This document shows, in pieces, positions 6,673 through 45,250 of a stretch of DNA of 64,000 nucleotides. Location: positions 12,671 to 76,670 of the IMG/VR virus record IMGVR_UViG_3300021962_000074. One strand, written 5' to 3'. Source of the DNA: a virus. The position numbers and the translations under genes are program-made. Numbering within the stretch: position 1 is the stretch's first letter; every line of letters begins with the position of its first letter. The notes under the pieces are model-generated. The model had not been told where the DNA came from, ran no database searches, and saw nothing but the letters and a program-made list of their open reading frames with translations.

Positions 6673-7669
6673 CCATGAAGTGAAACTTGACTATTCTGAT
6701 GTTCTGTTAGTTCCGCGAGAGTCTGATCTATCAAGTAGATCACAAGTTGACCTTGAGGTCAATCATTTTGACATCCCTGTAGTTCCTATCATTGCAGCGA
6801 ATATGGATGGCGTTGGAACTTTTGCGATGGCAAGAGAACTGGCTAAATATAAAATCCTGACCGCTCTTACTAAACACTATTCACTCGACGAGTTATTGGA
6901 CTTTTATGCATCAGATTCATCTAGGTACGCTGTTTATTCTATGGGCTGTAATAAAGCTGATTATGAGAAGTTTACTGCTTTCGATAGCAGCTGTAACGAC
7001 CTTGGTATTGCTCACCCCATTGGTGTTTGTATTGACGTTGCTAATGGTTATACTTCACATTTTGAAGAGTTCGTGGCGACGATTCGCGAAGAGTATCCAG
7101 ACTACATCCTCATGGTCGGCAACGTCGTCACGCCAGAACGAACCGAAAGATTGGTAGACGCAGGAGCCGATATCGTAAAAATCGGAATCGGTCCTGGCTC
7201 GGTCTGCACCACGCGAAAGTTGACTGGTGTTGGCTATCCGCAATTTTCTGCCGTGGCTGAGTGCGCATCAGCCGCAATTGGAGCAGGTGGAAACATTGTT
7301 GCGGATGGCGGCATTACATGTCCTGGCGATGCTGCCAAGGCTTTCGCTGCTGGTGCAAAATATGTAATGATTGGCGGTATGTTCGCTGGTCACGTCGAAG
7401 GTGGTAATACTTCTGATGAAGTTAAATTCTACGGCATGGCTTCCAAGGCTGCGCAGGATCAGCATAACGGTGGCGTGGCTGAGTATCGCGCCTCTGAAGG
7501 CAAGGAAGTGAAGATTGCTTTCCGTGGTCCTGTAAGTAACACCGTGCGTGAATTATTGGGTGGCATCCGTTCAGCCTGTACTTATATCGGTGCTGAGTCT
7601 TTGTCTGAAATGCCTCGACGCGCAAAGTTCGTTCGTGTCAATCGCCAACTCAATAATGTGTTTGCATGA
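6662..7669 (+). CDS. guaC: GMP reductase
   Basis: KLDYSDVLLVP, IIAANMDGVG, IDVANGY, KIGIGPGSVCTTR, ADGG, FYGMAS, YRASEG. Confidence 0.93.
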   Translation: MLIDHEVKLDYSDVLLVPRESDLSSRSQVDLEVNHFDIPVVPIIAANMDGVGTFAMARELAKYKILTALTKHYSLDELLDFYASDSSRYAVYSMGCNKADYEKFTAFDSSCNDLGIAHPIGVCIDVANGYTSHFEEFVATIREEYPDYILMVGNVVTPERTERLVDAGADIVKIGIGPGSVCTTRKLTGVGYPQFSAVAECASAAIGAGGNIVADGGITCPGDAAKAFAAGAKYVMIGGMFAGHVEGGNTSDEVKFYGMASKAAQDQHNGGVAEYRASEGKEVKIAFRGPVSNTVRELLGGIRSACTYIGAESLSEMPRRAKFVRVNRQLNNVFA

Positions 7670-27937: not shown

Positions 27938-29545
27938 ATGAAATCTATCATTACTCAATATCTAAGATATCAATTAGTAGAAAGGTTGAAATTGGATACA
28001 TTTTCAGTTTCCTCTAACACCTACATTGGTATTGGTCGACCAATACGTTGGGGCGATGATTCAAATGAAACTGCAGATGAAATTGAATCGCCAACATACA
28101 CTATCAACTATAGAAATCAGTTAAACAGAGACTTGGTGGCGATTAAGAAGGTACAAATATCTGATATGGCGTTAGTCGTTCCCAGAAGAGATTGGGTGTC
28201 TGGAGTTAGATATGATCCGTATGAAGACCACATAGAAATCTATAGTCATGAAGCCAAAACTTTAGTTGGTAATGCCAACACGATATCTTCCAGCACTGAA
28301 CTTGAGGAAGATGAGAACGGTATATTTACAGCTGCAAGTTTAGATGTCGGTGATATTATTCGTATCAATGGAGAAACTAGAGAAATAGTTGATATTGATG
28401 CGGGCAATGGTTTGTTAAATGTTAACATTGCGATGACTACTACTGCAACTGCAGAATCTATGATAAAGGTGTCTAATACCTATCCACAATTTGCAAATAA
28501 TTTCTATGTTCGCAATTCTAAAGATCAAGTATTTAAATGTTTATATAATGATGGTGTAAATTCAACCATTCAACCAGAAATAGACATAGATGGTCAGCTT
28601 CCAGAAAACCCATATATTCTAACTGGAGATGGCTATAAATGGAAATATCTATACACCATTCCATATGGACTAAAACAAAAGTTCTTCACCAACAACTGGA
28701 TGCCTGTTGTAAAAGACAATACAGTCGTCGCAGGTGCGATAAACGGTAGAATTGATATTATCACTATATTAGATGGGGGAAGTGGTTACTATACAATCGG
28801 TCAATCTGGTAATAGTAACACGCTACCGATTATATCAGTTGTTGGCGATGGAACTGGAGCGAATGTAACTGCAAAAGTAGAAAGTGGTGTAATTACGGAT
28901 CTAAACATTCTGAATGGTGGTAGCGGATATACCACAGCGGAGATAGTTGTAACAGATGACGATAAAGATCCAGATGGAGATACAGCATCATTTGACGTTA
29001 TAATTGGTCCTCCATCTGGACATGGAGTTGATCCAGCACGAGAACTTGGTTGTTTTTCGATAATGATCTCGGTAGAACTTAACGAACAAGAATCTGGCAA
29101 AGTCCCAGTCAGTTCAAGTTCTGGCGACTTCGACTTTAGACAGATTTCTCTAATCAGAGATCCAATACTATCAACTGGGTATTATGCTAATGGATCTGTA
29201 TATACTGCTGCAACTATTTACACTCTGACAGATCCTGGTATTACCAACTTCATTAATGACGAAACTGTGTATATCGGATCAACTTTAGAAACAGCAACAT
29301 TTACTGGGACAGTAGTTTACTGGGATCCAAATACCAATCAATTGTACCTAAACAATCTAGCAGGAACAACTGAATCTGGTCAATCAATTACTGGAGTTAC
29401 TAGCGCAGCAGTCGCAACCGTATTGTCTAGATCTGCCTCAGAAATGAGACTCTTCACTGGGGATTTACTATATATCGAGAATAGAGCAAAAATTATTCGC
29501 GACATTGATCAATCAGAACAAATTCGTATCGTTTTATCATTCTAG
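27938..29545 (+). CDS. gp8: baseplate wedge subunit
   Basis: VVPRRDW.SG..YD.Y; VFKCLYN; DGYKWKYLYTI; DFRQISL..DP; G.LLYIENR..I.R...Q.E. Confidence 0.9.
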   Translation: MKSIITQYLRYQLVERLKLDTFSVSSNTYIGIGRPIRWGDDSNETADEIESPTYTINYRNQLNRDLVAIKKVQISDMALVVPRRDWVSGVRYDPYEDHIEIYSHEAKTLVGNANTISSSTELEEDENGIFTAASLDVGDIIRINGETREIVDIDAGNGLLNVNIAMTTTATAESMIKVSNTYPQFANNFYVRNSKDQVFKCLYNDGVNSTIQPEIDIDGQLPENPYILTGDGYKWKYLYTIPYGLKQKFFTNNWMPVVKDNTVVAGAINGRIDIITILDGGSGYYTIGQSGNSNTLPIISVVGDGTGANVTAKVESGVITDLNILNGGSGYTTAEIVVTDDDKDPDGDTASFDVIIGPPSGHGVDPARELGCFSIMISVELNEQESGKVPVSSSSGDFDFRQISLIRDPILSTGYYANGSVYTAATIYTLTDPGITNFINDETVYIGSTLETATFTGTVVYWDPNTNQLYLNNLAGTTESGQSITGVTSAAVATVLSRSASEMRLFTGDLLYIENRAKIIRDIDQSEQIRIVLSF

Positions 29546-29556
29546 TAGGATAGCCA

Positions 29557-32500
29557 ATGGCAACAGAATTCAACATCGACCCATATTACGACGACTTTAA
29601 GCAGAACGCGAAAGAAAATAACTATGTTAAGATTCTTTTCAAGCCTGGAGTTTCCGTTCAGGCACGCGAACTGACTCAAATTCAGTCTATTCTACAGAAT
29701 CAGATTAAAGCATTTGGTGATCACATCTTTCAAGATGGTTCCCCAGTTATAGGAGGAAATCTTTCTTTAGATAACAATATCACATATGTCAAATTAGATG
29801 ACACCTATAACAATGAAGATATTGAGTTAGATCAGTTTGACGGTAGAGTTATTGTTAGAGATTCTGATGGACTTGTGCAAGCCAAGGTTCTAGCGACATA
29901 TTTCCCAGCTGGTGGTTCACCAACTCTAATGGTGAAGTATGTCAGCGGTATCGAATTTGACGATGGTGATATTTTCAGAGTTGCAGGAACAACTCGCAGA
30001 GCCAAGTGTATTGACTCTCAGGCTACAGGAAGGGGAACCGTTGTTTCAATCAACGAAGGTATCTTCTATGTTGATGGGTACTTTATCGAAGTCTCTGAGC
30101 AAACTACTGTGGTCAGTGCATATTCTCAGCTTGCAAATGCTAAGATTGGTCTAGAAATTACTGACGAAGTTGTAGATTATGTGGTAGATTCTACATTGCT
30201 AGATCCAGCACAGGAGTCCTTCAACTATCAGGCTCCTGGTGCAGATCGCTATCAATTCAATCTATCTCTAAGCACCAGACCTCTAGAAACAGCTGTTGAC
30301 GAATCAACTTTCTTTGAGTTGATGCGCGTCGAAAGTGGTGCTATCACTAAGCAAGTCAAGTACCCAATCTATTCAGAAATTGAAAAGACTCTGGCTAGAA
30401 GAACCTTTGATGAGTCTGGAGACTATACAGTTATTCCATTTAGAGCATCTGTCGCAAAATCCCAAGATGCTGCCAACTATATCATCAACATTGAGCCAGG
30501 AAAGGCTTATGTTAAGGGATTTGAGTTTGAAACTCTTGGCACATTTAAGATGGAAGTTGCTAAACCACGCGGTGAAACAGATCTGAAGAGTTTGATTGAT
30601 ATTGATTATGACACTTCATATGGCAATTATATCAAGGTCAAGGATCTATATGGTCCAAAAGATAGCGATGGAAATACATTTATTGATATAGAATCATTAG
30701 AGAGAGTTGATCTACACTTAGTAGACACATCAAAGGTTGCTGTTGGTCATGGCACCGCAACCTCTCCTGCTATCTATGCAAATACTAAGATTGGAACTGC
30801 TCGAATTAGAAATATCAAGAGAGACCGATCATCTGGAGCAGCTGACTATGATAGTGCTGGTGTTTATAGCATATATCTAGCAGACGTAAACATTGAACCA
30901 AAAACAGCAATTTTAACTGGTGGAACTAGCGATACTATCGTGCTGCCAGCAAATTTTTCTGCTGCAACTAATGCATATCAAAATGTAACCGTAACGATTC
31001 TACCAATTCAATTTACTACAGTCTCAGCTGCCGCAGATCTCTATGCTAATGGATATGTGACTACAACTGGAGCAGCATTTACAGGTACTGTGTACACTGG
31101 TGATGTTATTCGAATTGCTGATTACACCAGACAAGTAATCAATGTTGCAGCCGACGGTAATTCGCTTCGTATGAATAGTGGCGTAACTGCTAATATCACT
31201 GGAGCAAGTTTGGATGTTTATGTACAGACTGCATATTCTTCTGGTGTGACAGGACAAACTCGTAAGATTGTAAGTTATAATGGTGGTACGCTAACAGCAA
31301 CTTTAGATAGACCATTCGACGAAGGTGCTGCGCCAGTGGCAGGTGAGGTTGTACAATTAAACTACGCTCTAAAAGATATGGAATCTTTTATGGAGGCGAA
31401 TGCAGCTGGAGCAGGTGTTGTCAACACTGCTGCAAACGTATCAGTACAAACAAGATTGATTAATGGAGATGTGGCTACATTTGAAAATGACGACAAGGTT
31501 TTAGTGTATCGTCTGCCTAAAAACTATGTGAAGCGTGGAGATGGAATAACTCCTGGTATCACAAACGTAGATTATGTACATACCAAATACCAATCAATTA
31601 ATGCACCAACTTCAGCGTCATCTGGTGTGTTCAGATTTACTCTTGAGGCTCATGAAACAATTCCATGGTCATTTACTAACTCAAATGCTGAGGATAATCT
31701 AATTGTTGTCGCAAGACAAACTAGCGGCGCTGGTGCATCTGATGAAATATTGGTCGTTCCTGGTGCGAATATCTCCTCAGTTGTCAATGGTATTGAAATT
31801 GACACTGGTTTCCCAGATCTACAAAAGGTTGACGTTCTATGTAATGTTAAGAATAACGATGCTGAAAACAGAATCAGAACAAAGGTATTAAATAGCAATA
31901 CCACCCCAACCTTATCTCCATTCAATTATCCAGCACCAACAGATCTTAATACAGATTATACTGTATCAGTTCCTGCATATGGTTCTGTTGCTAAGATTAA
32001 CGTAGACAGTGGTATGGTGTTCATAACTGATCCAACTTATACCAATATCTATCCTGGAGACTCAATTAATCTCTTTGTTCCAGATATTGTTAAAATTCGT
32101 AAGATTATCAAGGGAACTGTAAATGACCCAGCTGATTCTGGTAACTATACAGACATTACAGACCATTTTGTAGTCGACTATGGTCAGAAAGACGATATCT
32201 ACGATCATGCCAAGTTGATATTAAAGCAAGGTTACCCATCACCAAATGCGCAAATGACAGTGCACTTCGATTTTTATGAGCATTTATATCCAGCTGGTGG
32301 TGATTCTACTTTCTTCTGCGTAGACTCTTATGATTCTAGCATTGATGATGCTGGTAGCACTCCAATATACTACTCCTCAAAGAATGGCGTGTATGATCTG
32401 AGAGATTGTTTGGACTTCCGATCAACTCGTCAAATTGGTGTTTCGACTGGAGCAATTCAAACATGCGCTTTACCAGCACCAGACATCTCAACTGAATTGT

Positions 32501-34107
32501 CCTTCTCATATTATCTGCCAAGAATTGATAAGTTAGTATTGAGTAAGACCAAAGAGTTCAAGATTATTCAGGGTGTTTCTGCGCCAAACCCAGTTGCACC
32601 ACCAGATCAAGAAGATTCAATGACTTTATATGTCATCTATCTTCCACCATATGTAAACGACGTCAATAAGATTCGCCTACAGTATATCGAGAACAAACGA
32701 TATACTATGAAAGACATCTCAAAGATTGATAAGCGTGTAGATCGTATTGAATATTATACAGCTCTAAATTCTATTGAGAATAAAGCCTTTGACGATACTT
32801 CTCAGTATGAAGATGGTACGGAAAAGGAAAAGTATGGTATAATCGGTGAGAATTTCCGTAACTTTAACATTGCTGATTATCGTCATCCAGATTTCAACTG
32901 CAGTATGGTAAGAAATGCACTAACACCATTCTTCAAGAATAGAGTAAATGGTACTAAGATAGTTTCAACTTCAAACGCAACTGAAAACGAAAAGACTATC
33001 ACCATGGCATATACTGAAGTTCCTGCAATCGTACAGGGCGTGGCAACTGAGAAGATTGTATCTGTGCAGCCATTCTTGTTTGGCACATTTATGGGTGATC
33101 TAAGAATCACTCCAGATATTGACTACTGGGTTGCAACTGATCTCAAGCCAGAAATTATTCGTGGTCCTGAGTATACAAAGGAAGTCAATACAATTACAAA
33201 TACAGTCACCAAAGAAATTATTAAAGAAATTAATACAACTCAGGTAATTGTTGAGAGAGTGAAAGAAAGAACAGTTATTGTGACTGTACCTGCTCCTGCT
33301 GTGAATAACTCACCAGCTCTAATTGAGGTTCCAAAAACTGATCCTCCACCTCCTGAACCAGAAGATGAGAGACCAGTACAAAAAGATCCTCCACCACCCG
33401 TGGTTGTGGATGAGCCAACTCCTGTTCCTCCACCAGCTCCAGAACCTGAGCCTGAGCCAGAAGTTGAGGTATTGCCAGACATTATCTCGCCAATTATTAT
33501 TCCTGCAGAAACGCAGCCTGAAGATCCTCCATATGAGCCACCTCCGCCAGAGCCAGAGGTTGAGGCTACTATTGCGCCAGAGCCTATTGTAGCATCTACA
33601 TCTTCAACAACATCGTTTGGTGGTGGTGGATGTGTTGCATTGGAAAGTTTTGTTCCTGTGGTTGAAGGTAACTCAGTAAACGGAAAACCAGTTGATCAAG
33701 CCTATCAAGTTGCAAGAATGCACAAGTTACTATTATGTGATCTAAATACTTTGTCAAATGTTGAAGGTAAGGTCAAGGATTCATTTGTTGATTATCAAGT
33801 ATGTCATAATGTCGTAACTGAATCTGGAGCGTCATTGGTATGTTCTGATACTGCTCCAATACCAACTAAGGATAATGGTATCAAGAATCCACCTGAGTTG
33901 GTTGGTGAGTTGGTGCCAGTACTTCGTAATAACAGTATTACATGGGAAAAAGTTGTTTCAAACGAAAATATGGGATATAAGTTTGTGAAGGTTATTGATG
34001 CGTATGACAATTACTTCTGGGCTGGTGCTACAGCTGATGCGTTCATACTACACCACAATATCATTTCTCAATTTAGAATTCAAGATCTAAGTTACGACAA
34101 GAAATAA
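29557..34107 (+). CDS. DUF4815/VrlC-like virion protein, N-terminal part, with Pro-rich linker and C-terminal Hint domain
   Basis: FNIDPYYDDF...ILFKPG..VQARELTQIQSILQNQI; APGADR; LARRTFDESGDY; YYLPRIDK; RYTMKDI. Confidence 0.85.
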   Translation: MATEFNIDPYYDDFKQNAKENNYVKILFKPGVSVQARELTQIQSILQNQIKAFGDHIFQDGSPVIGGNLSLDNNITYVKLDDTYNNEDIELDQFDGRVIVRDSDGLVQAKVLATYFPAGGSPTLMVKYVSGIEFDDGDIFRVAGTTRRAKCIDSQATGRGTVVSINEGIFYVDGYFIEVSEQTTVVSAYSQLANAKIGLEITDEVVDYVVDSTLLDPAQESFNYQAPGADRYQFNLSLSTRPLETAVDESTFFELMRVESGAITKQVKYPIYSEIEKTLARRTFDESGDYTVIPFRASVAKSQDAANYIINIEPGKAYVKGFEFETLGTFKMEVAKPRGETDLKSLIDIDYDTSYGNYIKVKDLYGPKDSDGNTFIDIESLERVDLHLVDTSKVAVGHGTATSPAIYANTKIGTARIRNIKRDRSSGAADYDSAGVYSIYLADVNIEPKTAILTGGTSDTIVLPANFSAATNAYQNVTVTILPIQFTTVSAAADLYANGYVTTTGAAFTGTVYTGDVIRIADYTRQVINVAADGNSLRMNSGVTANITGASLDVYVQTAYSSGVTGQTRKIVSYNGGTLTATLDRPFDEGAAPVAGEVVQLNYALKDMESFMEANAAGAGVVNTAANVSVQTRLINGDVATFENDDKVLVYRLPKNYVKRGDGITPGITNVDYVHTKYQSINAPTSASSGVFRFTLEAHETIPWSFTNSNAEDNLIVVARQTSGAGASDEILVVPGANISSVVNGIEIDTGFPDLQKVDVLCNVKNNDAENRIRTKVLNSNTTPTLSPFNYPAPTDLNTDYTVSVPAYGSVAKINVDSGMVFITDPTYTNIYPGDSINLFVPDIVKIRKIIKGTVNDPADSGNYTDITDHFVVDYGQKDDIYDHAKLILKQGYPSPNAQMTVHFDFYEHLYPAGGDSTFFCVDSYDSSIDDAGSTPIYYSSKNGVYDLRDCLDFRSTRQIGVSTGAIQTCALPAPDISTELSFSYYLPRIDKLVLSKTKEFKIIQGVSAPNPVAPPDQEDSMTLYVIYLPPYVNDVNKIRLQYIENKRYTMKDISKIDKRVDRIEYYTALNSIENKAFDDTSQYEDGTEKEKYGIIGENFRNFNIADYRHPDFNCSMVRNALTPFFKNRVNGTKIVSTSNATENEKTITMAYTEVPAIVQGVATEKIVSVQPFLFGTFMGDLRITPDIDYWVATDLKPEIIRGPEYTKEVNTITNTVTKEIIKEINTTQVIVERVKERTVIVTVPAPAVNNSPALIEVPKTDPPPPEPEDERPVQKDPPPPVVVDEPTPVPPPAPEPEPEPEVEVLPDIISPIIIPAETQPEDPPYEPPPPEPEVEATIAPEPIVASTSSTTSFGGGGCVALESFVPVVEGNSVNGKPVDQAYQVARMHKLLLCDLNTLSNVEGKVKDSFVDYQVCHNVVTESGASLVCSDTAPIPTKDNGIKNPPELVGELVPVLRNNSITWEKVVSNENMGYKFVKVIDAYDNYFWAGATADAFILHHNIISQFRIQDLSYDKK
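33631..34059 (+). other. Hint (intein/BIL-like) domain, 143 aa, no endonuclease
   Basis: GGGG|CVALESFV...LVCSDTAPI...FWAG...FILHHN|I: Cys1 and terminal His-Asn. Confidence 0.75.
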
Positions 34108-34118
34108 GGGTAATTTAA

Positions 34119-37100
34119 ATGGCAGACATTTTTGTACAACAAGGAACTCTAGTATCAGAAGTTTCTTTGATTCCATTTATCCGCAAACAAGATATTGTTT
34201 TCGATGCTGATAATCTTCGCCCATATAAAATTGCGCGTATGTTTTTTGACGAGATTGCGGTTAATCGCTGGTGTCAAAAGTCAAATAAAATTGTACTAAA
34301 CTCTAAGAAAAGATTAACTGTCAACGCAAATAGCGCATTAGCGCACTCAGGAAACACAGTATATCAAGGAACTTCCTTCGAAGGAGCAACTTTTACTGCG
34401 AAGGTCGACACGTTTAATAGTGGAACTGGCATACTTGTAATCAACAATATGTCAGGTAATTTTGATGAGAGTGCTGTAGTTTATGTGCAAAACGCCAACG
34501 GAACTACTGCATTCAGCGGAAACATTATTTCAATCACCAATCAAAATACATCAGATATTTTCTATGGTGGTGAAGAATTAATTTGTCCAAATAATAATAT
34601 TTTCTTCCAAGTAATTGGCACTTCTGGTGAAAATATTCTATATGTAAATGAAAACTTCGTAACTATTGACGTCTCTACCACTGATCAGGCGTATATATCT
34701 CAATTTAAAGTCGGTGAGTTAGTATTCCAAAATCCGACTGGTGTGAATAGAGCCAACTTGAGATCTTATCTTGCAAAAGTTGTTTATGTAACACCAACTG
34801 GCGGTTCCATTTCTCTACAGACAATTAATGGAACATTGAATGTTCATCCAACTGATACAGAAGCAAGACTGTGGAATGGATCAAACCGATCTGTGCAAAA
34901 TCCTTTGCAGTGTAACGATGTTAAGTTGTATGACATGCAAGCGAATAATGTCATAACATCAATCAAGAATCCTACCAAGAACGTATCAATAGTTTCCCAC
35001 ATACACAGTTCTGGTATCATCGCTAACACTGATGCTGCTACAGATTTAAGTGCAGATTACATATATGTCAGTTCATCCAATACCAGTATCGCTAATGGAA
35101 ATCTAATGTATTTCACAGCTGGATCTGGTCTAGGTCAGCTGCGAAGAGTTATAGAAATTGACGGAAAGAAAATTAGGTTGAATTCTGCTCTTACAATCAA
35201 TCCAACACATACAACCAAGTATTCATTGGGCAATCATGTTGTTGACGAAAATGGTTCATTGTCAGGTATCTTCAATCTCCCAGCTGAACCAAACTTCAAG
35301 TTCAAGACTGGTGAGAGAGTATTCACCGTAACAGACACTAATAAACTATCAGATACTGACTTCACAATGAAGGCTTCTGCCAAGTTTACTGCTAGTGGTT
35401 TATTGAACAAGGCTCAGAGAATTGTGACGACTCCAATCAATCGTCCAATGCCTGAGTATAATCCAGATAATCCGATTACTCCATTAGATCCAACAGAAAG
35501 AACATATAATTCAACTACCACGACTCAGCCAGTTGTGGGTACTACCACTACTGATATCCCAAGAATTCAGATTTCTGACGGATTGTCACAAACATTCTTT
35601 ACGCCAAAAACCAAAGGCAACAAAGTAAATAGTGGCATTTTTGCAACATCCATTGATTTGTTCTTTAAAAATAAACCAAGCACAGCAAATGGATCTCTGC
35701 AATTACCTGTAACTGTTAAAATTGCTGAAGTGAAAAATGGTTATCCAACCAAAAACTATTTGGCTGCTAAGACAATTAAGGCTAAAGATGTGAAGGTTTC
35801 AACTAACCCAAGTACATCAAATGCTGCAACATATACCAAGTTTACTTTCAATGATCCAGTCTATCTATTACCAGACAGTGAGTATGCAATCGTAGTTTCT
35901 TCTGAATCGCCAGAATACGAACTATACATTGCGGAGATTGGTGGTAATGTGTTAGGTGCTGATCCTCCTCGTCGTATTTCTGAACAACCATATGCTGGTT
36001 CATTGTTCAAGTCTCAAAACGCTACAACTTGGACTCCATACCAGAATCAAGATTTGATGTTCGTTGTCAATAAGGCGAAATTTAATATTGGCACTTCATC
36101 AAGTGCTACATTCAATCTTGAGGTTCCTCCTGGTTATACGCAAAATGTGGATAGAGTAATGTTGCACAGCAACCAATTAACTTTCCCCAAAGCGAGCATT
36201 GATTACAGAGTAAAGAGCACATATAAATCAAACAACAATTTCGAAAGTGTTGGATATTATGTGGCACCACATAAGCAATTCTTATATGGTAATCTATTAG
36301 ACGCTGCGGTCAGAAAGACTTCTTTATCTAATACAAACAGTCGATTGATTCAGTTTGGTAACGCAAACAGTATCATGATCGTTACTGAGTTTGCTTCTTC
36401 TGACGAAGACATTAGTCCAGTGTTTAACCAAGAATCTCTCTCAGTCATCACATCTGAGCACAATATTAATAACGGTGAACTTCCAAATACAGTAATCAGC
36501 GTTGTTAATCGCGGTGTTGGATACAATGCAGTGGTCACAACAGGCAACTCAATCCACACTCATTCTGGTGGAACAGAAACAGACACTGATCTAGCAGATG
36601 CGGCTCAGGCGTTCAGAGAAACTTTCCTGGACACCGATTATGATGTAGGTTTTTATGCTATATCTATTTCTGGTGGCGGTGGTACTGGTGCGAATGGATT
36701 TGCTGTAGCCAACACTACTGGCACAGAAACGATAGACTATATCGTAATTACAGAAGGTGGATCTGGATATATTGAAAATCCAACTATCACCATTGCTCCT
36801 GGTAACACTGCAACTTCCGTAACTGCTGCAGCGATTATTAATGGTGAAACTGGTAAGAGCGGTGGTAATATTCGCGCTAAATATTTAACAAGACAAATAG
36901 TCCTAGAAGATGGATTTGAGTCTGGAGATCTTAGAGTATTCATGGATTGTATTAGACCAAACGGAACTGATATCCAAGTATATTATAAAGTGTTGTCTGG
37001 AGAAGATTCAGATAGATTCACTGATAAAAGATGGGTTCGTATGTTGAAAAAGGTGGATAAGAACTCTAAGAGTTTGCGAGATATAATTGAACTAGAATTT

Positions 37101-37268
37101 AAGCCAAATCTAGATGAAAACAAATTATATTATTTCGATAGTGGTCAAAAGTATCCTATCGGCGACAAGTTTAAGTATTTTGCAATCAAGGTTTGTATGT
37201 TATCTGAAGACGAGGCAGTTATACCAACTATTCGAAATCTTCGTATTATAGCTGCTCCAGAGGGATAA
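34119..37268 (+). CDS. DUF4815/VrlC-like virion protein, C-terminal part
   Basis: IPFIR...; FKTGER.F; LSQTFF...GIFATSIDLFF; GSLFKSQNATTW...QDLMF; AKYLTR.I.L; F.YFAIK. Confidence 0.8.
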   Translation: MADIFVQQGTLVSEVSLIPFIRKQDIVFDADNLRPYKIARMFFDEIAVNRWCQKSNKIVLNSKKRLTVNANSALAHSGNTVYQGTSFEGATFTAKVDTFNSGTGILVINNMSGNFDESAVVYVQNANGTTAFSGNIISITNQNTSDIFYGGEELICPNNNIFFQVIGTSGENILYVNENFVTIDVSTTDQAYISQFKVGELVFQNPTGVNRANLRSYLAKVVYVTPTGGSISLQTINGTLNVHPTDTEARLWNGSNRSVQNPLQCNDVKLYDMQANNVITSIKNPTKNVSIVSHIHSSGIIANTDAATDLSADYIYVSSSNTSIANGNLMYFTAGSGLGQLRRVIEIDGKKIRLNSALTINPTHTTKYSLGNHVVDENGSLSGIFNLPAEPNFKFKTGERVFTVTDTNKLSDTDFTMKASAKFTASGLLNKAQRIVTTPINRPMPEYNPDNPITPLDPTERTYNSTTTTQPVVGTTTTDIPRIQISDGLSQTFFTPKTKGNKVNSGIFATSIDLFFKNKPSTANGSLQLPVTVKIAEVKNGYPTKNYLAAKTIKAKDVKVSTNPSTSNAATYTKFTFNDPVYLLPDSEYAIVVSSESPEYELYIAEIGGNVLGADPPRRISEQPYAGSLFKSQNATTWTPYQNQDLMFVVNKAKFNIGTSSSATFNLEVPPGYTQNVDRVMLHSNQLTFPKASIDYRVKSTYKSNNNFESVGYYVAPHKQFLYGNLLDAAVRKTSLSNTNSRLIQFGNANSIMIVTEFASSDEDISPVFNQESLSVITSEHNINNGELPNTVISVVNRGVGYNAVVTTGNSIHTHSGGTETDTDLADAAQAFRETFLDTDYDVGFYAISISGGGGTGANGFAVANTTGTETIDYIVITEGGSGYIENPTITIAPGNTATSVTAAAIINGETGKSGGNIRAKYLTRQIVLEDGFESGDLRVFMDCIRPNGTDIQVYYKVLSGEDSDRFTDKRWVRMLKKVDKNSKSLRDIIELEFKPNLDENKLYYFDSGQKYPIGDKFKYFAIKVCMLSEDEAVIPTIRNLRIIAAPEG

Positions 37269-37269
37269 T

Positions 37270-37479
37270 ATGAAATTAAAAGTTAAGGAAAATGAGAAAT
37301 TTGTGAGAGACTCAAATAACTTAGCAATCTTAAACACTGATGAGAATGCTATAAAGAAGCATGAACTTAAAATGGAACAGCTTCGTAAACAGAAAGAGCG
37401 CGATAGAGAAATCCAGACGATAAAGAACGATTTAGCGGAACTAAAACAATTATTGAGAGATCTAGTAAATGGCAAGTAG
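37270..37479 (+). CDS. small coiled-coil protein that follows DUF4815 genes
   Basis: FVRDSNNLAILNTD...IKNDLAELKQLL. Confidence 0.7.
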   Translation: MKLKVKENEKFVRDSNNLAILNTDENAIKKHELKMEQLRKQKERDREIQTIKNDLAELKQLLRDLVNGK

Positions 37480-39817
37480 TACAAATATCAGTGATGTAGC
37501 AACAGCCAATACGTTTGACGAATGGCGTATACAGACTAATTTGATTGGCGATGATGCCAATGAAATTGCTCGCGGCGATTTTATCAAACCTGCAGGAAAT
37601 GTTACCATTAGCGATGGTTATTTGCTACTAGATAAGGGATCTGGAATCACTCTAGAAGTCGACGCAGATGCTCGCGTCTCTGGTCTTCTGGATCTGAAGA
37701 ATCTAGAACAAGACGCTGATGGATATTTGTATAGCGAAGCAGGTGATATACAGTTTCAGAATGCGGAAGTCATTATACAAGTTGCTGGAAACACTCACAC
37801 CAGATTTTTGTTCAATAACACATACTCAAGTTTAGCAAACGTCAATGCCAATGGATACATAGAAACCACTGGCGTTCACTCTAATAATGATTTGTTCATG
37901 AACATTGCAAATGTTCTGAAAGTGAATACTACTGGAACTGTAAACATCAGTGCATCTGCCACATCTCAAGGTAATTTAAACGTAGCCAATCTACATGTCG
38001 AAACACACGCAGATATAGTTAGCGCATTTGTTGGTAGTTTGGAAGTCGATACTCTAACAACCAATAGCCCTATCCAAGGTGAGGCTGAAATCGCTGCAGG
38101 AACTTATAGATTAAGAGTTGGTGCTTTAACCGACGGCGATGGTTCTTTTGGAGTTTGGAGAGGAAGTTCTACTAAAGGTAATGCTTGGATTGAGTTCTCA
38201 TCTGGAGATGAAGTTTGGAAAGTAACCAACAGCGATATGGGTCTGGATGGATTGGGTGGTAATCCTGCTACATACTACACTATTTTGACAACTGCAAATC
38301 TAACTAATGATCTTGCAAACACTAGCCAATACGCTATTCCTTCTGCGTTTTTAGCGAATTCAATTTACGAAACACTAAGTTCAACTAACGAAGCCGCTGA
38401 TGCTGCTGCGAATACAACTAGCGTTTCTGCTAATAGCGGCTCTGTTCTATACAAGAGAGTAGTAAATTTCGTAAACACAGAACAAGTTATAGTCTCTGTG
38501 GCAGAATCAACACAACCAGGATTTCAAGGCACTGTTGCAAATGTCTCATTCACAGTAACAGAGGCAGTTGGTCGTCAGGGTTCTCCAGGTGTACAAGGTG
38601 CGCAAGGTGTTCAAGGTGACCGCGGAATACAAGGTGCACAAGGCTTGCAGGGCGCGCAAGGTGTTCAAGGTCTAATTGGCAGACAAGGTGACCGCGGAAT
38701 ACAAGGTGCACAAGGCTTGCAGGGCGCGCAAGGTGTTCAAGGTCTAATCGGTAGACAGGGCGAAAAGGGTGATGTTGGTATTCAAGGTGTACAAGGTCTT
38801 GCTGGTACATATGGAGTTAGAGGTGGTGTTGAATATAAGATGGACACCACTGTTAATGGAACTCCAGCAAGCGGAGAAATCACATTTAGTAGCAGTACTG
38901 CATCATCTATATCAATTATTAAGATTCATGAAACTGATAGAAGAGGCGTAGATCAAAGTGCATTTATTGGAGCATGGGATGATAATTCAGCGCCAGTGAG
39001 TGGAATAAGAGGATATCTGACCATTCAGTCTCGCGATCCCACCAGTTCTGATTTTATTGCATTTAGAATTACTGGTGCAATTACTGATTCTGGTACTTAT
39101 CGTCAAGTTCCAGTAAGTTATGTCAGCGGATCTATTCCAGGCAACAACAATGAGTTGGCAGTAAACTTCTCAGCAACTGGTGACGTTGGAGCGCAAGGGG
39201 CAAACGGTGCTGATGGTTCTCAGGGTCCAGCTGGTGTTCAGGGTAGACAAGGAACTCAAGGTCCACAAGGGCGTCAAGGACTCAAGGGTGATAAAGGTGA
39301 TACTGGCGACGCTGGTGCAGTAGGCGTTCAGGGTAGACAAGGAACTCAAGGTCCACAAGGTTCTGCTGGACCAAGTAATGTACTTAATGCATCTAGCACT
39401 ACAGGAGCGCAATATCTAGTCGGTTCTCCAGGAACAGGTAATCAGACTCCTTATATCAGCTCAGTATACATGAGTGGTAATCAAGTCTATGCTGTTGACT
39501 TTAACGCAACTTCTGACGCCAAGTTCAAGGATGTCATTGGTGCGATTGAAGATCCAGTGATCAAGGTAAATGCTCTTGAGGGTATTGAATACACTTGGAA
39601 TGCATTGGCTAAAGAACAAGGACTGTCCGAAGCTGATGATGCCAGCGTTCAAATAGGTTTGATTGCGCAGGAAGTGGAAAAAGTCTATCCATCATTAGTC
39701 ACTGAACTAAATGGCAATAAGGCAGTTAGATATTCTAAGGTTGTGGCATTGTTGATTGAGGCAGTCAAAGAACTCAATGCGAGAGTGAAGAAACTAGAAG
39801 AAAAACTGGGTGAATAA
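37469..39817 (+). CDS. tail/neck fibre with collagen-like segments and C-terminal S74 intramolecular chaperone
   Basis: ANTFDEWR..TN N-terminal motif; GXY repeats; TSDAKFKD.I...GLIAQEVEKVYP..V...Y..VVALLIEAVKEL. Confidence 0.85.
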   Translation: MASSTNISDVATANTFDEWRIQTNLIGDDANEIARGDFIKPAGNVTISDGYLLLDKGSGITLEVDADARVSGLLDLKNLEQDADGYLYSEAGDIQFQNAEVIIQVAGNTHTRFLFNNTYSSLANVNANGYIETTGVHSNNDLFMNIANVLKVNTTGTVNISASATSQGNLNVANLHVETHADIVSAFVGSLEVDTLTTNSPIQGEAEIAAGTYRLRVGALTDGDGSFGVWRGSSTKGNAWIEFSSGDEVWKVTNSDMGLDGLGGNPATYYTILTTANLTNDLANTSQYAIPSAFLANSIYETLSSTNEAADAAANTTSVSANSGSVLYKRVVNFVNTEQVIVSVAESTQPGFQGTVANVSFTVTEAVGRQGSPGVQGAQGVQGDRGIQGAQGLQGAQGVQGLIGRQGDRGIQGAQGLQGAQGVQGLIGRQGEKGDVGIQGVQGLAGTYGVRGGVEYKMDTTVNGTPASGEITFSSSTASSISIIKIHETDRRGVDQSAFIGAWDDNSAPVSGIRGYLTIQSRDPTSSDFIAFRITGAITDSGTYRQVPVSYVSGSIPGNNNELAVNFSATGDVGAQGANGADGSQGPAGVQGRQGTQGPQGRQGLKGDKGDTGDAGAVGVQGRQGTQGPQGSAGPSNVLNASSTTGAQYLVGSPGTGNQTPYISSVYMSGNQVYAVDFNATSDAKFKDVIGAIEDPVIKVNALEGIEYTWNALAKEQGLSEADDASVQIGLIAQEVEKVYPSLVTELNGNKAVRYSKVVALLIEAVKELNARVKKLEEKLGE
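38612..38755 (+). repeat. 72-bp near-perfect tandem duplication in collagen segment
   Basis: caaggtgaccgcggaatacaaggtgcacaaggcttgcagggcgcgcaaggtgttcaaggtctaat.. twice. Confidence 0.85.
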
Positions 39818-40418: not shown

Positions 40419-40751
40419 ATGGCATACGCAGAACTTACGATTGATCAGGGGACTACGTTTCAAACCTCTATTGATCTCGCGAATGACGATGGAACCGCGA
40501 TAAATGTCGCGAATTATACATTTCAGTCGCAGATAAGAAAGTCCTATTATTCCGCAAACGCGACCGCAAATCTAACCGTCACCGTAGTCGATGAGGCTAA
40601 CGGTAACGTAACACTTTCTCTTACATCTGATGAAACTGCTAATATTGCAGCTGGGCGTTATCTATATGACATAAAGATGACTTCATCTGGAGATGTGACT
40701 ACTAGAATTGTGGAAGGCATTGTAACTGTCACTCCACAGGTTAGCCGATGA
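40419..40751 (+). CDS. small virion adaptor protein (BppU-N-like)
   Basis: LTIDQGTTF...QIRKSY...LSLT...T.....GRYLYD...RIVEG.VTVTP.V. Confidence 0.75.
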
Positions 40752-43700
40752 AAGTCACGGTTTCTAATACCAACGATATTGGTAGACTGAGTTTAAAATC
40801 TGGCGCACCAGGACCAACTGGACCACAAGGACCAGGAGGAGTTCAAGGTGTACAAGGTGTGCAAGGAACTCAGGGTTCACAAGGAACTCAAGGTCCACAA
40901 GGATTAACTGGTGTCCAAGGCGTCCAAGGTCCACAAGGAAATACTGGCGTCCAAGGTGTTCAAGGTCCGCAAGGATTAACTGGTGTTCAAGGTGTTCAAG
41001 GTCCGCAAGGATTAACTGGTGTCCAAGGCGTCCAAGGTCCGCAAGGATTAACTGGTGTCCAAGGTGTACAAGGACCACAGGGTGTACAAGGTGAAGTTGG
41101 TCTACAAGGTCCACAGGGATTAACTGGTGTCCAAGGCGTCCAAGGTCCACAAGGTGTACAAGGCGAAGTTGGTTTACAAGGTCCACAAGGTGCAGTAGGA
41201 CCACAAGGTGTTGACGGCGCTCAAGGTGTACAAGGTGAAGTTGGTCTACAAGGTCCACAGGGATTAACTGGTGTACAAGGTGTACAAGGACCACAGGGTG
41301 TTGTGGGTGCACAAGGTGTACAAGGCTTCCAAGGTCCACAAGGATTGATTGGTGTTCAAGGTGTCCAAGGTCCACAAGGTGTCGTTGGAGCGCAAGGCGT
41401 TCAAGGTGTGCAGGGACCACAAGGTGTTGACGGAGCACAAGGTGTACAAGGTGTGCAGGGACCACAAGGTGTCGTTGGCGCACAGGGTGTGCAGGGTGAG
41501 CAAGGACCACAAGGCGTACAAGGTGTTCAAGGTCCGCAGGGCGTTGACGGAGCACAAGGTGTCGTCGGTGCTCAAGGTGTGCAAGGTGTACAAGGACCAC
41601 AAGGTGCACAAGGTGAAACTGGATCTTTCGGTGGTGCCACATTTGATTATGAATATCGAGTAGAAACAAGTGACCCCACCAATCTTGGTGATGGTATTAT
41701 TCGCTTCAATGCTGATCCATTTAACACTGCAACTGAATTGTATATTAGTTATGTTGATGCTGATACTTTAAATGTATATAATTATCTACAAACCATTGAT
41801 GACTCCACTTCTACAATTAAGGGTGTGTTCAAGGTTGCAAATACTGCAAATATAAATCAGTTTGCATTCTTCAGCATAAATGGATCACACTCTGAACACA
41901 CTGATCACTTTAATGTTCCTGTCGCATGGACTAGCGGTGAAACATCTTTAGCCAATACAACAAATGTAATCATTACATTTACTAGAACTGGTGACAAAGG
42001 TGACACTGGAGCACAAGGACCACAGGGTGTACAAGGCGTTCAAGGTCCACAAGGTGTCGTTGGAGCGCAAGGCGTTCAAGGTGAGCAAGGTCCACAAGGT
42101 GTCCAAGGTGTGCAAGGTCCACAAGGTGTTGTCGGTGCACAAGGCGTACAGGGTGTGCAAGGTCCACAGGGTGCACAAGGAGTTCAAGGCGTCCAAGGTC
42201 CACAAGGTGTTGATGGAGCGCAAGGCGTACAAGGCGAACAAGGTCCACAGGGTGCACAAGGCGTACAAGGCGTTCAAGGTCCACAAGGTGTCGTTGGCGC
42301 ACAGGGTGTTCAAGGCGTACAAGGTCCACAAGGTGTTGATGGGGCACAGGGTGTTCAAGGCGTTCAAGGTCCACAAGGTGTCGTTGGCGCACAAGGTGTC
42401 CAAGGTGTTCAAGGTCCACAAGGTGTTGACGGAGCACAAGGTGTCGTCGGTGCTCAAGGTGTGCAAGGTGTCCAAGGCGTTCAAGGTCCACAGGGTGTCC
42501 AAGGTGTACAAGGTGCACAGGGACCACAGGGTGTACAAGGTGAACAAGGTCCACAGGGTGTGCAAGGCGTACAGGGACCACAAGGCGTTGATGGAGCACA
42601 AGGTGTCGTCGGTGCACAAGGTGTGCAAGGTGTACAGGGTGTTCAAGGACCGCAGGGTGTTGATGGAGCACAGGGTGTCCAAGGCGTCCAAGGTCCACAA
42701 GGTGTCGTTGGAGCGCAAGGCGTTCAAGGTGAACAAGGTCCACAAGGTGTCATTGGCGCACAAGGTGTTCAAGGTGAACAAGGTCCACAAGGCGTTGTGG
42801 GTGCACAAGGTGTTCAAGGTGTCCAAGGTCCACAAGGTGTTGAAGGAGCACAAGGCGTTCAAGGTGTGCAGGGACCACAAGGTGTGCAAGGCGAACAGGG
42901 ACCACAAGGTGTACAAGGTGTTCAAGGTCCACAAGGTGTCGTCGGTGCGCAAGGTGTCCAAGGCGAGCAAGGTCCACAAGGTGTCCAAGGTGTACAAGGT
43001 CCGCAAGGTGTCGTCGGTGCGCAAGGTATCCAAGGCGAGCAAGGTCCACAAGGTGTCCAAGGTGTACAAGGACCGCAAGGTGTCGTTGGCGCACAAGGTG
43101 TGCAGGGAGTTCAAGGACCGCAGGGAGTTGTAGGTGCACAGGGTGTTCAAGGTGAGCAAGGTCCACAAGGCGTCCAAGGTGTGCAAGGACCACAAGGTGT
43201 TCAAGGTGAGCAAGGTCCACAAGGTGCACAAGGCGTTCAAGGTGTACAGGGACCACAAGGTGTTGATGGAGCACAAGGCGTACAAGGTGTTCAAGGTCCA
43301 CAAGGTGTCGTAGGCGCGCAAGGCGTTCAAGGTGAACAAGGTCCGCAAGGAGTTCAAGGTGTCGTTGGCGCACAAGGTGTTCAAGGTGAACAAGGTCCGC
43401 AAGGAGTTCAAGGTGTTCAAGGTCCGCAGGGTGTTCAGGGTGTACAAGGAACTCCAGGAGATCTATACGCTACAACCAGTAGCACCTCTGACACTATTGC
43501 AACTGGCAGCACAACCATAACAGTTGAAACTGGTCTTGCCTACTCCGCAGGTCAGAGTGTAATTATTGCCTATGATAGCAGCAATAAAATGGAAGGTACT
43601 GTAACTTCCTATAATTCTGGTACTGGTGACTTAGTTGTTGATGTGACAACAATTACAGGCTCTGGAACATATTCTGTTTGGGATGTCAACCTTGCTGGTG

Positions 43701-45250
43701 CTCCTGGTCCACAAGGACCACAAGGCGTCCAAGGTGTGCAAGGTCCGCAAGGCGTTCAAGGTGTACAGGGACCACAAGGTGTTGATGGAGCACAGGGTGT
43801 TCAAGGCGTTCAAGGTCCACAAGGTGTCATTGGTGCTCAAGGTGTTCAAGGTGAGCAAGGTCCACAAGGCGTACAAGGTGTCGTTGGCGCACAAGGTGTT
43901 GATGGAGCACAAGGCGTCCAAGGTATCCAAGGTCCACAAGGTGTAATCGGCGCACAAGGTGTCCAAGGCGTTCAAGGTCCACAGGGAGTTGTGGGTGCGC
44001 AAGGTGTTCAAGGTGAACAAGGACCGCAAGGTGTCGTTGGTGCGCAAGGTGTTCAAGGCGAACAGGGACCACAAGGCGTTCAAGGCGTACAGGGACCACA
44101 AGGTGTTATTGGCGCACAGGGTGTTCAAGGCGAACAGGGACCACAAGGTGTCATTGGTGCTCAAGGCGTCCAAGGCGTTCAAGGTCCACAGGGTGTCATT
44201 GGTGCTCAAGGTGTTCAAGGTGAGCAAGGTCCACAAGGCGTACAGGGAGTTCAGGGACCACAAGGCGTTGATGGAGCACAAGGCGTCCAAGGTGTGCAAG
44301 GTCCACAAGGTGTTCAAGGCGTTCAAGGACCACAAGGCGTGCAGGGTGTGCAAGGTCCACAAGGTGTTCAAGGCGTTCAAGGACCACAAGGCGTGCAGGG
44401 TGTTGCAGGTAATGATAACTTCCCAGTATCGTCGAATACTGGATCAACTGTAACATCTAGTGGAATCAATTTTACTAACACATCTAGCATTACCGTTCTA
44501 GTTGAAGCAGGTATTGATGGTAATGCTAATGTATCTTTCTCTAGTGGTATTGATGATGGTAATGCTGACATTACTGTACTTGACTCTGCTCCAGGAGGAA
44601 CACCAAGAGCCAATCAAGATTTCTGGTGGGATTCAGATTCTGGTAGATTGAAGATCTACTATAATGACGGCGATACTGCTCAATGGGTTGATGCGTTTAT
44701 CAACTCAGCTGGTCCTCAAGGTCCGCAGGGATTGAATGGTGCATTTACCGTTTCTTCTACTGCTCCTGTATCTCCTGGCGACGGCACAGTTTGGTGGGAT
44801 TCTGATACAGGTAAGTCATACATCTACTATAATGATGGATCATCAAGTCAGTGGGTGTTGGTTGCAGATCCTGAAGTCAAGGGCGATCCTGGTGTAAACT
44901 TCTGGGTCATTGATATTGGTGATGAGACAACTTCATTGACAACTGGAACCGCAAAGAAAACTTTCCGCGCTCCATTTGCGTTGACTCTAACTGATATTCC
45001 AAGAGCAAGTCTAACCACCGCATCAACCTCTGGTGCTGTTACCGTTGACATCAATGTGACTGGAACTTCAGTGCTTGGTGCAAATAAACTAAGCGTAGAT
45101 CAAGATGAGAAAACTTCTACTACAGCTGCTACACCAACTACAATCGCAACCAGCTCTGTAGCTGACGATGCTGAGATTACAATTGACATTGATGGTGCTG
45201 GTACTGGCGCAGCTGGATTGAAGGTTACACTATATTTCAATAAGGTATAG
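40748..45250 (+). CDS. giant collagen-like fibre (1500 aa)
   Basis: About 1000 aa of Gly-X-Y (mostly [12 protein letters not shown]) in three segments separated by globular modules. Confidence 0.9.

What the first reader, a model, noticed from the sequence alone, without database searches (positions are those of the whole stretch)
33240..34200. Hint domain at the split point of a DUF4815/VrlC virion protein: possible self-cleaving or ligating module
Seen: ORF 29557 ends with a roughly 110-aa Pro/Glu-rich linker, STSSTTSF-GGGG|C, a 143-aa Hint-like domain ending HHN, and then Ile rather than Cys/Ser/Thr plus a 15-aa tail. Block B reads CSDTAP, lacking the usual His. The next ORF starts 12 nt later with sequence that, as I recall, is the continuation of single-chain DUF4815 proteins. 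Known: Hint domains without a +1 nucleophile (BIL/Hedgehog types) cleave or transfer the N-terminal protein to an external nucleophile via a thioester. Inference: a Gly-Gly thioester on a flexible arm could ligate to the second half, another virion protein or a host surface molecule, giving a covalent assembly or attachment mechanism.
Basis: partly seen in the sequence, partly recalled or inferred. Interest (0 to 1): 0.78.

Follow-up and report, generated by a model that had tools for sequence, protein, structure and literature searches.

The report
Intein-like insert capping split baseplate protein
An uncultured marine T4-like phage encodes its large VrlC baseplate protein as two genes, and the first ends in a proline-rich tether that carries a genuine intein-like (Hint) self-processing domain from a large unnamed phage family; the domain looks like an optional self-removing insert, not a device for rejoining the two halves.

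Summary
ORF 29557-34107 ends in a Pro/Glu-rich linker, GGGG, then a 143-aa domain from Cys to HHN, then Ile and a 15-aa tail. The AlphaFold model of the domain (pLDDT 87) matches mini-inteins and BIL domains. The next ORF is the continuation of single-chain VrlC proteins.

- The gene split is ancestral to a 22-member clade. About half of that clade lacks the Hint, and those first halves end "GGGG + 12-16 aa tail", which is the window's flanks with the Hint removed.
- The domain is therefore a sporadic insert, like type A BIL domains. I found no sign that it ligates the halves.
- The family is large (426 clusters at 50% identity) and matches no Pfam, PHROG or NCBIfam model.
- It has block B His replaced by Ala, an invariant Cys before block B, and a Lys in the C-flank of every member examined.
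- It is under purifying selection.
- The same module caps a second, unrelated split phage protein.

Best reading: self-excision, probably with the tail rejoined to GGGG (type A BIL route), possibly through the conserved Lys. No processing has been measured. Earlier agents of this scan reached similar readings on other genomes.

The parts
27938..29545 (+). gp8-like baseplate wedge gene immediately upstream (context)
   Evidence: Pfam Phage-Gp8, E 2e-14
29557..33201 (+). VrlC/DUF4815 body of ORF1 (residues 1-1215), equivalent to the first ~1276 residues of single-chain VrlC
   Evidence: Pfam DUF4815 6e-60. phrog_358 positions 4-1144, E 4e-205. BLASTP to Mosig VrlC.
33287..33618 (+). Pro/Glu-rich linker (about 105 aa) followed by the Ser/Thr patch TSSTTSF
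   Evidence: Read directly. Relatives have Pro-rich linkers of variable sequence at the same place.
33619..33630 (+). GGGG, the N-flank (-4..-1) of the Hint domain
   Evidence: The -1 residue is Gly in 79 of 116 family members, and GGGG is the commonest -4..-1 string.
33631..34059 (+). 143-aa Hint-fold domain, from Cys1 (33631-33633) to His-His-Asn (34051-34059)
   Evidence: AF2 pLDDT 87-88. Foldseek matches to mini-inteins and BIL domains. Invariant residues C12, C82, S83, A86, F140, A142, G143, L151, H152, H153, N154 in P0003 numbering. dN/dS 0.07-0.14 in relatives.
33841..33858 (+). Block B equivalent C-S-D-T-A-P: invariant Cys, then Ser in place of Thr and Ala in place of His of the intein TxxH motif
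   Evidence: The type-2 Hint of relatives reads C-S-L-T-H at the aligned place.
34060..34104 (+). 15-aa C-flank tail (I-I-S-Q...Y-D-K-K) with the clade-typical penultimate Lys; stop codon at 34105-34107
   Evidence: The homologous tail follows GGGG directly in Hint-less relatives.
34108..34118 (+). 11-nt spacer between ORF1 and ORF2
   Evidence: In relatives the spacer is -4 to 20 nt and the frame relation varies, so recoding is unlikely.
34119..37268 (+). ORF2, the second half of VrlC, with an insertion of about 300 aa relative to Mosig
   Evidence: BLASTP to Mosig VrlC 1362-2042. phrog_358 positions 1322 onward.

Best explanation
The 143-aa domain is an active, endonuclease-free Hint autoprocessing element of the bacterial intein-like (type A BIL) kind. 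It belongs to a large unnamed subfamily carried mainly at the C-terminal ends of phage virion proteins. In this phage it is an optional insert between GGGG and a short conserved tail, at the end of the proline-rich tether of the N-terminal half of a split VrlC baseplate protein.

Inferred mechanism:
1. Cys1 undergoes an N-to-S acyl shift at the Gly-Cys bond.
2. The terminal Asn cyclises and cuts the Asn-Ile bond.
3. An amine of the released tail attacks the thioester. This is either the alpha-amine of Ile+1, as proposed for type A BILs, or the epsilon-amine of the conserved penultimate Lys.

The Hint would then leave, and the mature first half would end '...GGGG-tail', as it does in Hint-less relatives.

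Shown here: the fold, the residue pattern, the presence/absence alleles, purifying selection, and the independence of the split from the Hint. Inferred: every chemical step.
For: - Hint fold with confident matches to mini-inteins and to BIL domains 2lwy and 6tmm.
- Invariant Cys1 and His-His-Asn in 58 of 58 aligned members.
- The +1 residue is Ile, Leu, Val, Lys or Met. Cys, Ser or Thr occur there in only 4 of 150 members.
- dN/dS of Hint plus tail is 0.07-0.14.
- Presence/absence alleles at one exact site. Split relatives without the Hint end GGGG + 10-17 aa, and most tails share the motif D-(L/F)-x-(Y/F)-(D/E)-(K/R)-x with the window's tail.
- Hint-bearing lineages lie in two separate subclades of an all-split clade, and a distant VrlC (L063) acquired a Hint of another lineage.
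- All 101 short C-flanks contain Lys, where about 68 would be expected to lack it. Lys is at +1..+3 or at the penultimate position in 143 of 150 members.
- In the marine clade, Lys is penultimate in 58 of 69 distinct tails, against 0 of 8 Hint-less tails, where Arg stands there in three.
- Type A BILs can splice without a +1 nucleophile through Asn cyclisation followed by aminolysis (PMC4031507).
Against: - No processing has been observed for any member.
- For type A BILs, cleavage products dominate over spliced ones (PMC4031507, PMC7664689).
- The family combines Gly at -1 with Ala in place of the block B His. In the Ssp DnaB intein that combination is the defective one, and only bulky -1 residues compensate for His73Ala (PMC6333167). 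The first step therefore needs an unidentified alternative activation.
- The window's sub-lineage departs from the consensus at three well-conserved positions (R71N, G136Y, E144A), although close relatives share these changes.
- AF2 does not place the tail (pLDDT 45-76).
- Hint-less split forms of the second protein family lack the GGGG-tail, so the tail may travel with the Hint and not belong to the host protein.
Confidence: 0.5

Rival explanations
1. Self-cleaving cap only. The Hint hydrolyses the Gly-Cys thioester, and perhaps the Asn-Ile bond, and leaves with the tail. The mature first half then ends in a free ...GGGG-COOH tether, and nothing is rejoined. The cap might serve as a transient folding, solubility or assembly aid.
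For: - Cleavage is the dominant outcome for type A BILs in experiments (PMC4031507, PMC7664689).
- The domain is almost always near the C-terminus, with tails as short as 2-8 aa.
- The neighbouring fibre gene uses another self-cleaving C-terminal chaperone, Peptidase_S74.
- Earlier agents of this scan reached this reading on other genomes.
Against: - The invariant terminal Asn, the universally present Lys in the C-flank and the conserved tail motif would be unnecessary if the tail were discarded.
- Hint-less alleles keep the tail joined to GGGG.
Confidence: 0.27
2. Thioester transfer to an outside nucleophile. The GGGG thioester on the flexible arm is captured by ORF2, by another virion protein or by a host surface molecule, giving a covalent link.
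For: - Tetrahymena BIL2, a structural match, conjugates its N-flank to lysines of other proteins (PMC8616854).
- The module recurs at the break of two unrelated split proteins: VrlC, and the family exemplified by L027.
- It was found only in split forms, in 0 of 60 single-chain VrlC loci.
Against: - Sister lineages have the same split and no Hint.
- No residue at the ORF2 N-terminus is specific to Hint-bearing loci.
- The conserved Asn and the tail Lys point to an intramolecular partner.
- Most family members are not next to a split partner.
Confidence: 0.13
3. Retained, non-catalytic domain. A decayed intein-like remnant that stays in the mature protein as a structural knob on the tether.
For: - Block B His is missing, Gly stands at -1 (PMC6333167), and there is no +1 nucleophile.
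- The N and C ends of a Hint fold lie close together, so an insert in a flexible tail could be tolerated without being removed (general knowledge of the fold).
Against: - Cys1, His-His-Asn and some ten other positions are invariant across very diverse hosts and architectures, in a family of 426 clusters.
- dN/dS is 0.07-0.14.
- A decaying remnant would lose exactly these residues.
Confidence: 0.08

Closest known systems
Type A bacterial intein-like (BIL) domains (Amitai 2003; Dassa 2004; C. thermocellum BIL, PDB 2lwy)
   Same: Hint fold of mini size with no endonuclease. N-terminal Cys, C-terminal His-Asn and no +1 nucleophile. It sits in a variable, flexible region of a surface or structural protein rather than at a conserved catalytic site, and its distribution is sporadic.
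   Different: No hit to PT-HINT or any other Pfam model at E <= 1. Block B TxxH reads SxxA, preceded by an invariant Cys. There is a double His before the Asn and an obligatory Lys in the C-flank. It is carried by phages and sits almost always at the C-terminus.
Tetrahymena BUBL BIL2 (PDB 6tmm/6y75)
   Same: Structural match. A glycine-ended N-flank precedes Cys1, and a Lys of the C-flank acts as acceptor (PMC8616854). This parallels the GGGG N-flank and the conserved Lys found here.
   Different: BIL2 is eukaryotic and sits between ubiquitin-like domains. It keeps the block B His (H69). Its C-flank is a folded domain, not a 15-aa tail. Isopeptide formation is untested here.
Class 1 mini-inteins (Npu/Ssp DnaB)
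   Same: They are the best structural matches (TM 0.84 on the target). They share Cys1 and a terminal His-Asn, and they occur as presence/absence alleles at one precise site.
   Different: The +1 residue is Ile, so no branched ester intermediate can form. The host site is a flexible C-terminal tail. The block B His is absent.
Hedgehog/Hog C-terminal autoprocessing domains
   Same: C-terminal position, a Gly-Cys scissile bond, and a cargo protein upstream.
   Different: Hog domains lack the terminal Asn and carry a sterol- or adduct-recognition region. Here the domain ends in His-His-Asn and is followed by only a short tail.
Single-chain VrlC/DUF4815 baseplate proteins (phrog_358; e.g. Pelagibacter phage Mosig, cyanomyophages)
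   Same: ORF1 plus ORF2 together align along the whole single chain. The gene follows gp8. VrlC is held to replace T4 gp7 in these phages (PMC7029224).
   Different: Here the gene is in two pieces, and the first carries a tether, the Hint and the tail.

Membership tests
Hint (Hedgehog/intein) superfamily | Hint beta-fold | tested here: met
   AF2 pLDDT 87. Foldseek probability 1.00 to more than 50 intein and BIL chains, TM up to 0.84.
Type A BIL domain | N-terminal Cys/Ser nucleophile | tested here: met
   Cys at 33631-33633, invariant in 58 of 58 aligned members.
Type A BIL domain | C-terminal His-Asn | tested here: met
   HHN at 34051-34059, invariant.
Type A BIL domain | No Cys/Ser/Thr at +1 | tested here: met
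   Ile in the window. Cys, Ser or Thr in only 4 of 150 members.
Type A BIL domain | Block B Thr-x-x-His | tested here: not met
   Reads Ser-x-x-Ala, invariant in the family.
Type A BIL domain | Match to the curated sequence models (Pfam PT-HINT, Hint_2, Intein_splicing) | tested here: not met
   No Pfam, PHROG or NCBIfam hit at E <= 1. A different Hint in relatives L071 and L073 does hit PT-HINT weakly.
Type A BIL domain | Autocatalytic cleavage or splicing | not testable with these tools
   Needs expression and mass spectrometry.
Class 1 intein | +1 nucleophile for trans-esterification | tested here: not met
   Ile at +1.
Class 1 intein | Insert-bearing and insert-free alleles at one precise site | tested here: met
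   GGGG followed directly by the tail in L069-L078, against GGGG-Hint-tail in the window, L003 and L004-L015.
Hedgehog/Hog domain | No terminal Asn; C-terminal sterol/adduct-recognition region | tested here: not met
   Ends HHN, followed by a 15-aa tail only.
BUBL-type BIL (Lys isopeptide ligation) | Lys of the C-flank as acceptor | tested here: inconclusive
   A Lys is present in all 101 short C-flanks, but no chemistry was tested.
VrlC/DUF4815 | Match to PF16075 and collinearity with single-chain members | tested here: met

The most novel reading that the evidence does not exclude
The family performs lysine-directed protein splicing. The thioester at GGGG-Cys1 is captured by the epsilon-amine of the obligatory C-flank Lys: at +2 in most members, and penultimate in the marine clade that includes this window. 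Asn cyclisation then releases the Hint and leaves an isopeptide-branched C-terminus on a virion protein. The same chemistry acting in trans could conjugate the tether to lysines of a partner. This would be a phage counterpart of Tetrahymena BIL2, working without the block B histidine.
Probability: 0.2. Interest if true: 0.85.

Novelty: new variant of a known kind. Interest (0 to 1): 0.6.

Why it matters
If the domain is active, this is a large natural family of small, endonuclease-free Hint domains. They would work with Gly at -1, without the block B histidine and without a +1 nucleophile, and always with a nearby lysine. That residue combination is of direct interest for the mechanism of protein splicing and for traceless or isopeptide ligation tools.

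For phage biology, it shows that tethers at the breaks of split baseplate and virion genes are hot spots where at least two Hint families come and go. It also provides natural insert-bearing and insert-free alleles that predict the processed product.

Tried and rejected
- blastn of the region against phage records found no match.
- Pfam, PHROGs and NCBIfam gave nothing for the Hint part. A family profile against PDB sequences gave only E 1.2, to the PhoCDC21-1 intein.
- Recoding or read-through joining ORF1 and ORF2 was rejected. The spacers are -4 to 20 nt with changing frame relations.
- A split intein was rejected. The whole Hint, including HHN, lies in ORF1, and ORF2 starts directly with VrlC sequence.
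- I looked for an acceptor residue specific to the ORF2 N-terminus and found none.
- A second AF2 run with a 58-sequence alignment, meant to place the tail, left it unstructured.
- A Hint-less paralogue in jumbo-phage locus L045 was checked as a second natural 'spliced' form, but it has an unrelated C-terminus.
- I searched 80 VrlC loci for a single-chain VrlC with an internal Hint and found none.
- A second copy of the Hint in the window or in its 76.7-kb record was not found.
Full report
**What is there.** The window is a structural module of an uncultured T4-like marine myophage. Its record is a 76.7-kb fragment estimated 44% complete. A gp8-like wedge gene (27938-29545) is followed by ORF1 (29557-34107, 1516 aa; Pfam DUF4815, E 6e-60). 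Then come ORF2 (34119-37268, 1049 aa) and a collagen-like fibre gene with a Peptidase_S74 chaperone.

- a Pro/Glu-rich linker, TSSTTSF, and GGGG at 33619-33630;
- Cys at 33631;
- a 143-aa domain ending His-His-Asn at 34051-34059;
- Ile and a 15-aa tail ending Y-D-K-K;
- a stop codon, then an 11-nt spacer before the ATG of ORF2.

**Is it a Hint domain?** Yes.
- Sequence libraries do not see it. Pfam, PHROGs and NCBIfam gave no hit at E <= 1.
- A family profile against PDB sequences found only a weak match (E 1.2) to the PhoCDC21-1 intein. That alignment lays C-S-D-T-A-P on V-T-P-T-H-P of block B.
- The AlphaFold2 model is confident: pLDDT 87 with 18 sequences and 88 with 58.
- Foldseek against the PDB gives probability 1.00 for more than 50 chains, all inteins or intein-like domains. 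They include NpuDnaB 4o1r and Ssp DnaB 1mi8 (TM 0.71 on the query, 0.84 on the target), the C. thermocellum BIL domain 2lwy and Tetrahymena BIL2 6tmm.
- In the viral library, the best matches are uncharacterised phage proteins, followed by proteins named Hint and by intein-bearing terminases and polymerases.

**Is the gene really a split VrlC?** Yes.
- The single-chain VrlC of Pelagibacter phage Mosig (2045 aa, also directly after gp8) aligns at residues 5-1276 with ORF1 3-1201 and at 1362-2042 with ORF2 4-1045.
- The 2056-position profile phrog_358 is covered at 4-1144 by ORF1 and from 1322 by ORF2.
- Of 80 VrlC loci fetched from viral contigs, 60 are single-chain, 10 are split and 10 are cut by contig ends.
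- VrlC is described as replacing T4 gp7 in pelagimyophages and cyanomyophages, and as part of two-layered baseplates (PMC7029224).

**The family.** A phmmer scan of 1.84 billion representatives found 426 clusters at E <= 0.001.
- The domain lies near the C-terminus in most members. Of 150 with a recognisable end, 101 have tails of 30 aa or fewer.
- N-terminal partners are very diverse. They include VrlC, a second large protein described below, jumbo-phage proteins, and short bacterial-looking proteins.
- In a 58-sequence alignment the invariant positions (P0003 numbering) are Cys1 (C12), A35, L80, C82-S83, A86, G126, F140, A142-G143 and L151-H152-H153-N154.
- Block B therefore reads Ser-x-x-Ala instead of Thr-x-x-His, and it is preceded by an invariant Cys.
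- Residue -1 is Gly in 79 of 116 members, and GGGG is the commonest N-flank.
- Residue +1 is Ile, Leu, Val, Lys or Met. Cys, Ser or Thr occur there in only 4 of 150 members.
- Hint plus tail is under purifying selection. dN/dS is 0.14 (L008 against L009) and 0.07 (L004 against L015). For the window against L003, dN is 0.23 and dS is saturated.
- The window's sub-lineage differs from the consensus at R71N, G136Y and E144A. Its closest relatives share these changes, so I read them as lineage-specific and not as decay.

**The split does not depend on the Hint.** In a maximum-likelihood tree of the conserved VrlC segment, the window lies in a 22-row clade (support 100/100). Every member of that clade whose state can be read is split at the same place.
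- The Hint occurs in two separate subclades: window + L003, and an 11-row group L004-L015.
- Between them lie Hint-less split lineages: L069/L070, L071, L073, L074, L075, L077 and L078.
- This needs at least two gains or several losses.
- A distant VrlC (L063, about 30% identity) is split independently. It carries a Hint from a different branch of the Hint tree.
- In the Hint tree, the VrlC-borne copies and the copies from the second protein family sit in an unresolved polytomy inside one well-supported marine clade (100/99).

**The natural experiment.** The Hint-less first halves end in a Pro-rich linker, then GGGG, then 10-17 residues before the stop. Most of these tails share the motif D-(L/F)-x-(Y/F)-(D/E)-(K/R)-x with the tails that follow His-His-Asn in Hint-bearing genes (compared). 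They therefore read as the window's flanks would with the Hint removed. This is the pattern of intein-bearing and intein-free alleles. It predicts that the functional product is '...GGGG-tail'.

**A lysine rule.**
- All 190 distinct C-flanks collected contain Lys.
- Among 150 members, Lys is at +2 in 90, within +1..+3 in 110 and at the penultimate position in 40. One or the other holds in 143.
- All 101 short tails have a Lys, although about 68 would be expected to lack one at the proteins' Lys frequency of 3.3%. These sequences are related, so that expectation is not a formal probability.
- In the marine clade, Lys is penultimate in 58 of 69 distinct tails. In the 8 Hint-less VrlC tails it is never penultimate, and Arg stands there in three.
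- The Lys thus goes with the Hint, not with the host protein.

**A second split protein with the same module.** A protein of 620-880 aa lies between nrdA/nrdB and a cell-wall hydrolase gene (for example L027:3937-6477). It ends in a Pro-rich linker, GGGG, the Hint and a 12-13-aa tail. An ORF follows 1-2 nt later.
- Of 79 loci found with that downstream ORF, 49 encode one fused chain, 15 are split with the Hint and 15 are split without it.
- Those Hint-less forms lack the GGGG-tail. The tail may therefore travel with the Hint, which weakens the natural-experiment argument somewhat.

**Other Hints at the same break.** Relatives L071 and L073 carry a different Hint domain inside the linker. It matches PT-HINT weakly (E 2e-4 and 2e-5), its block B reads C-S-L-T-H, and it ends S-H-N followed by Lys. 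Fragment P0005 has both Hint types in tandem. These tethers are therefore hot spots for Hint insertion.

**Mechanism.** The residue pattern fits type A BIL domains: Cys1, terminal His-Asn and no +1 nucleophile.
- The proposed route for type A BILs is thioester formation, then Asn cyclisation, then attack of the freed amine on the thioester. Cleavage products dominate in experiments (PMC4031507, PMC7664689).
- Tetrahymena BIL2 instead forms an isopeptide to a Lys of its C-flank or of other proteins (PMC8616854).
- The invariant Asn, the obligatory Lys, the conserved tail and the Hint-less alleles together make me favour excision with rejoining of the tail (confidence about 0.5).
- I rate cleavage only at 0.27, transfer to an outside partner at 0.13 and a retained inert domain at 0.08.
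- One real difficulty remains. In the Ssp DnaB intein, Gly at -1 combined with His73Ala is defective, and only bulky -1 residues compensate (PMC6333167). This family has exactly Gly at -1 and Ala at that position, so it must activate the scissile bond in another way. The invariant Cys before block B and the double His are candidates, untested.

**Comparison and novelty.** This is a Hint superfamily member that works most like a type A BIL. It fails two membership features of that type: block B His, and any match to the curated models. I therefore file it as a new variant of a known kind. My paper searches found no description of it, but they were few.

Earlier agents of this scan reported the same kind of module on other genomes. 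Their readings were similar: BIL-A-like, an optional insert, and a Lys after the cleavage site. I had derived the lysine rule and the gain/loss pattern on my own loci before reading those notes.

**Limits.** No experiment exists for any member. The locus samples are capped at 80 per scan and are not a census.

Noticed in passing
L071:6285-6680 and L073 (about 6330-6740); protein P0005: A second, different Hint domain sits inside the Pro-rich linker of Hint-less-type VrlC first halves. It starts C-P-A-P-W, its block B reads C-S-L-T-H, and it ends S-H-N followed by Lys. It matches Pfam PT-HINT weakly. P0005 shows this type and the window's type in tandem, separated by V-K-F-T-GGGGG.
   Followed up: partly
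L027:3937-6477 and L027:6483-8126 (also L007, L013-L052): An unrelated large protein lies between nrdA/nrdB and a cell-wall hydrolase gene. It is one chain in 49 of 79 loci and split in 30. In 15 of the split loci the first half ends in linker-GGGG-Hint-tail, exactly as in VrlC. No Pfam or PHROG family matches either half.
   Followed up: partly
proteins P0008, P0009, P0011, P0012: Short proteins (241-263 aa) combine an N-terminus resembling a double-glycine bacteriocin leader, a Gly/Ala-rich hydrophobic stretch, this Hint, and a 25-aa aromatic tail. They may be Hint-processed bacteriocin-like peptides.
   Followed up: no
L045:6462-7850, L053:6474-7865, L054:6465-7823; proteins P0030-P0033: In jumbo-phage members the Hint interrupts a cysteine-rich segment: C-x2-C-x6-CC before Cys1, and I-K-C-C-Y-C...C-C-x-C after Asn. 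Both flanks together would form one Cys-rich knot, which again suggests rejoining of the flanks.
   Followed up: partly
proteins P0028, P0040, P0043, P0045: These members have a conserved C-flank of about 95 aa after H-H-N-M-K (Gly-rich, then a motif ending K-L-R-K-L-G-G-K/R). Here the Hint is internal and has a real downstream domain.
   Followed up: no
L113:5967-7658 and L122:5970-7673: VrlC relatives are split independently at a later point, after the start of the second-half homology. The break carries a long Pro/Thr-rich, acidic extension and no Hint.
   Followed up: no
window 37469-39817, 40748-45250, 50743-55878: Three fibre-like genes have long collagen-type Gly-x-y repeats. These show as 9-bp periodic arrays and as local GC of 0.50-0.55 against about 0.38 elsewhere. 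The first gene ends in a Peptidase_S74 self-cleaving chaperone.
   Followed up: partly
L002:5503-6444 (Xanthomonas phage PhiXhv-16) and related cultured jumbo phages: Cultured Xanthomonas and Erwinia jumbo phages carry a member of this Hint family (about 31% identity) at the C-terminus of a 313-aa hypothetical protein in the baseplate region. These phages are usable for virion proteomics.
   Followed up: no
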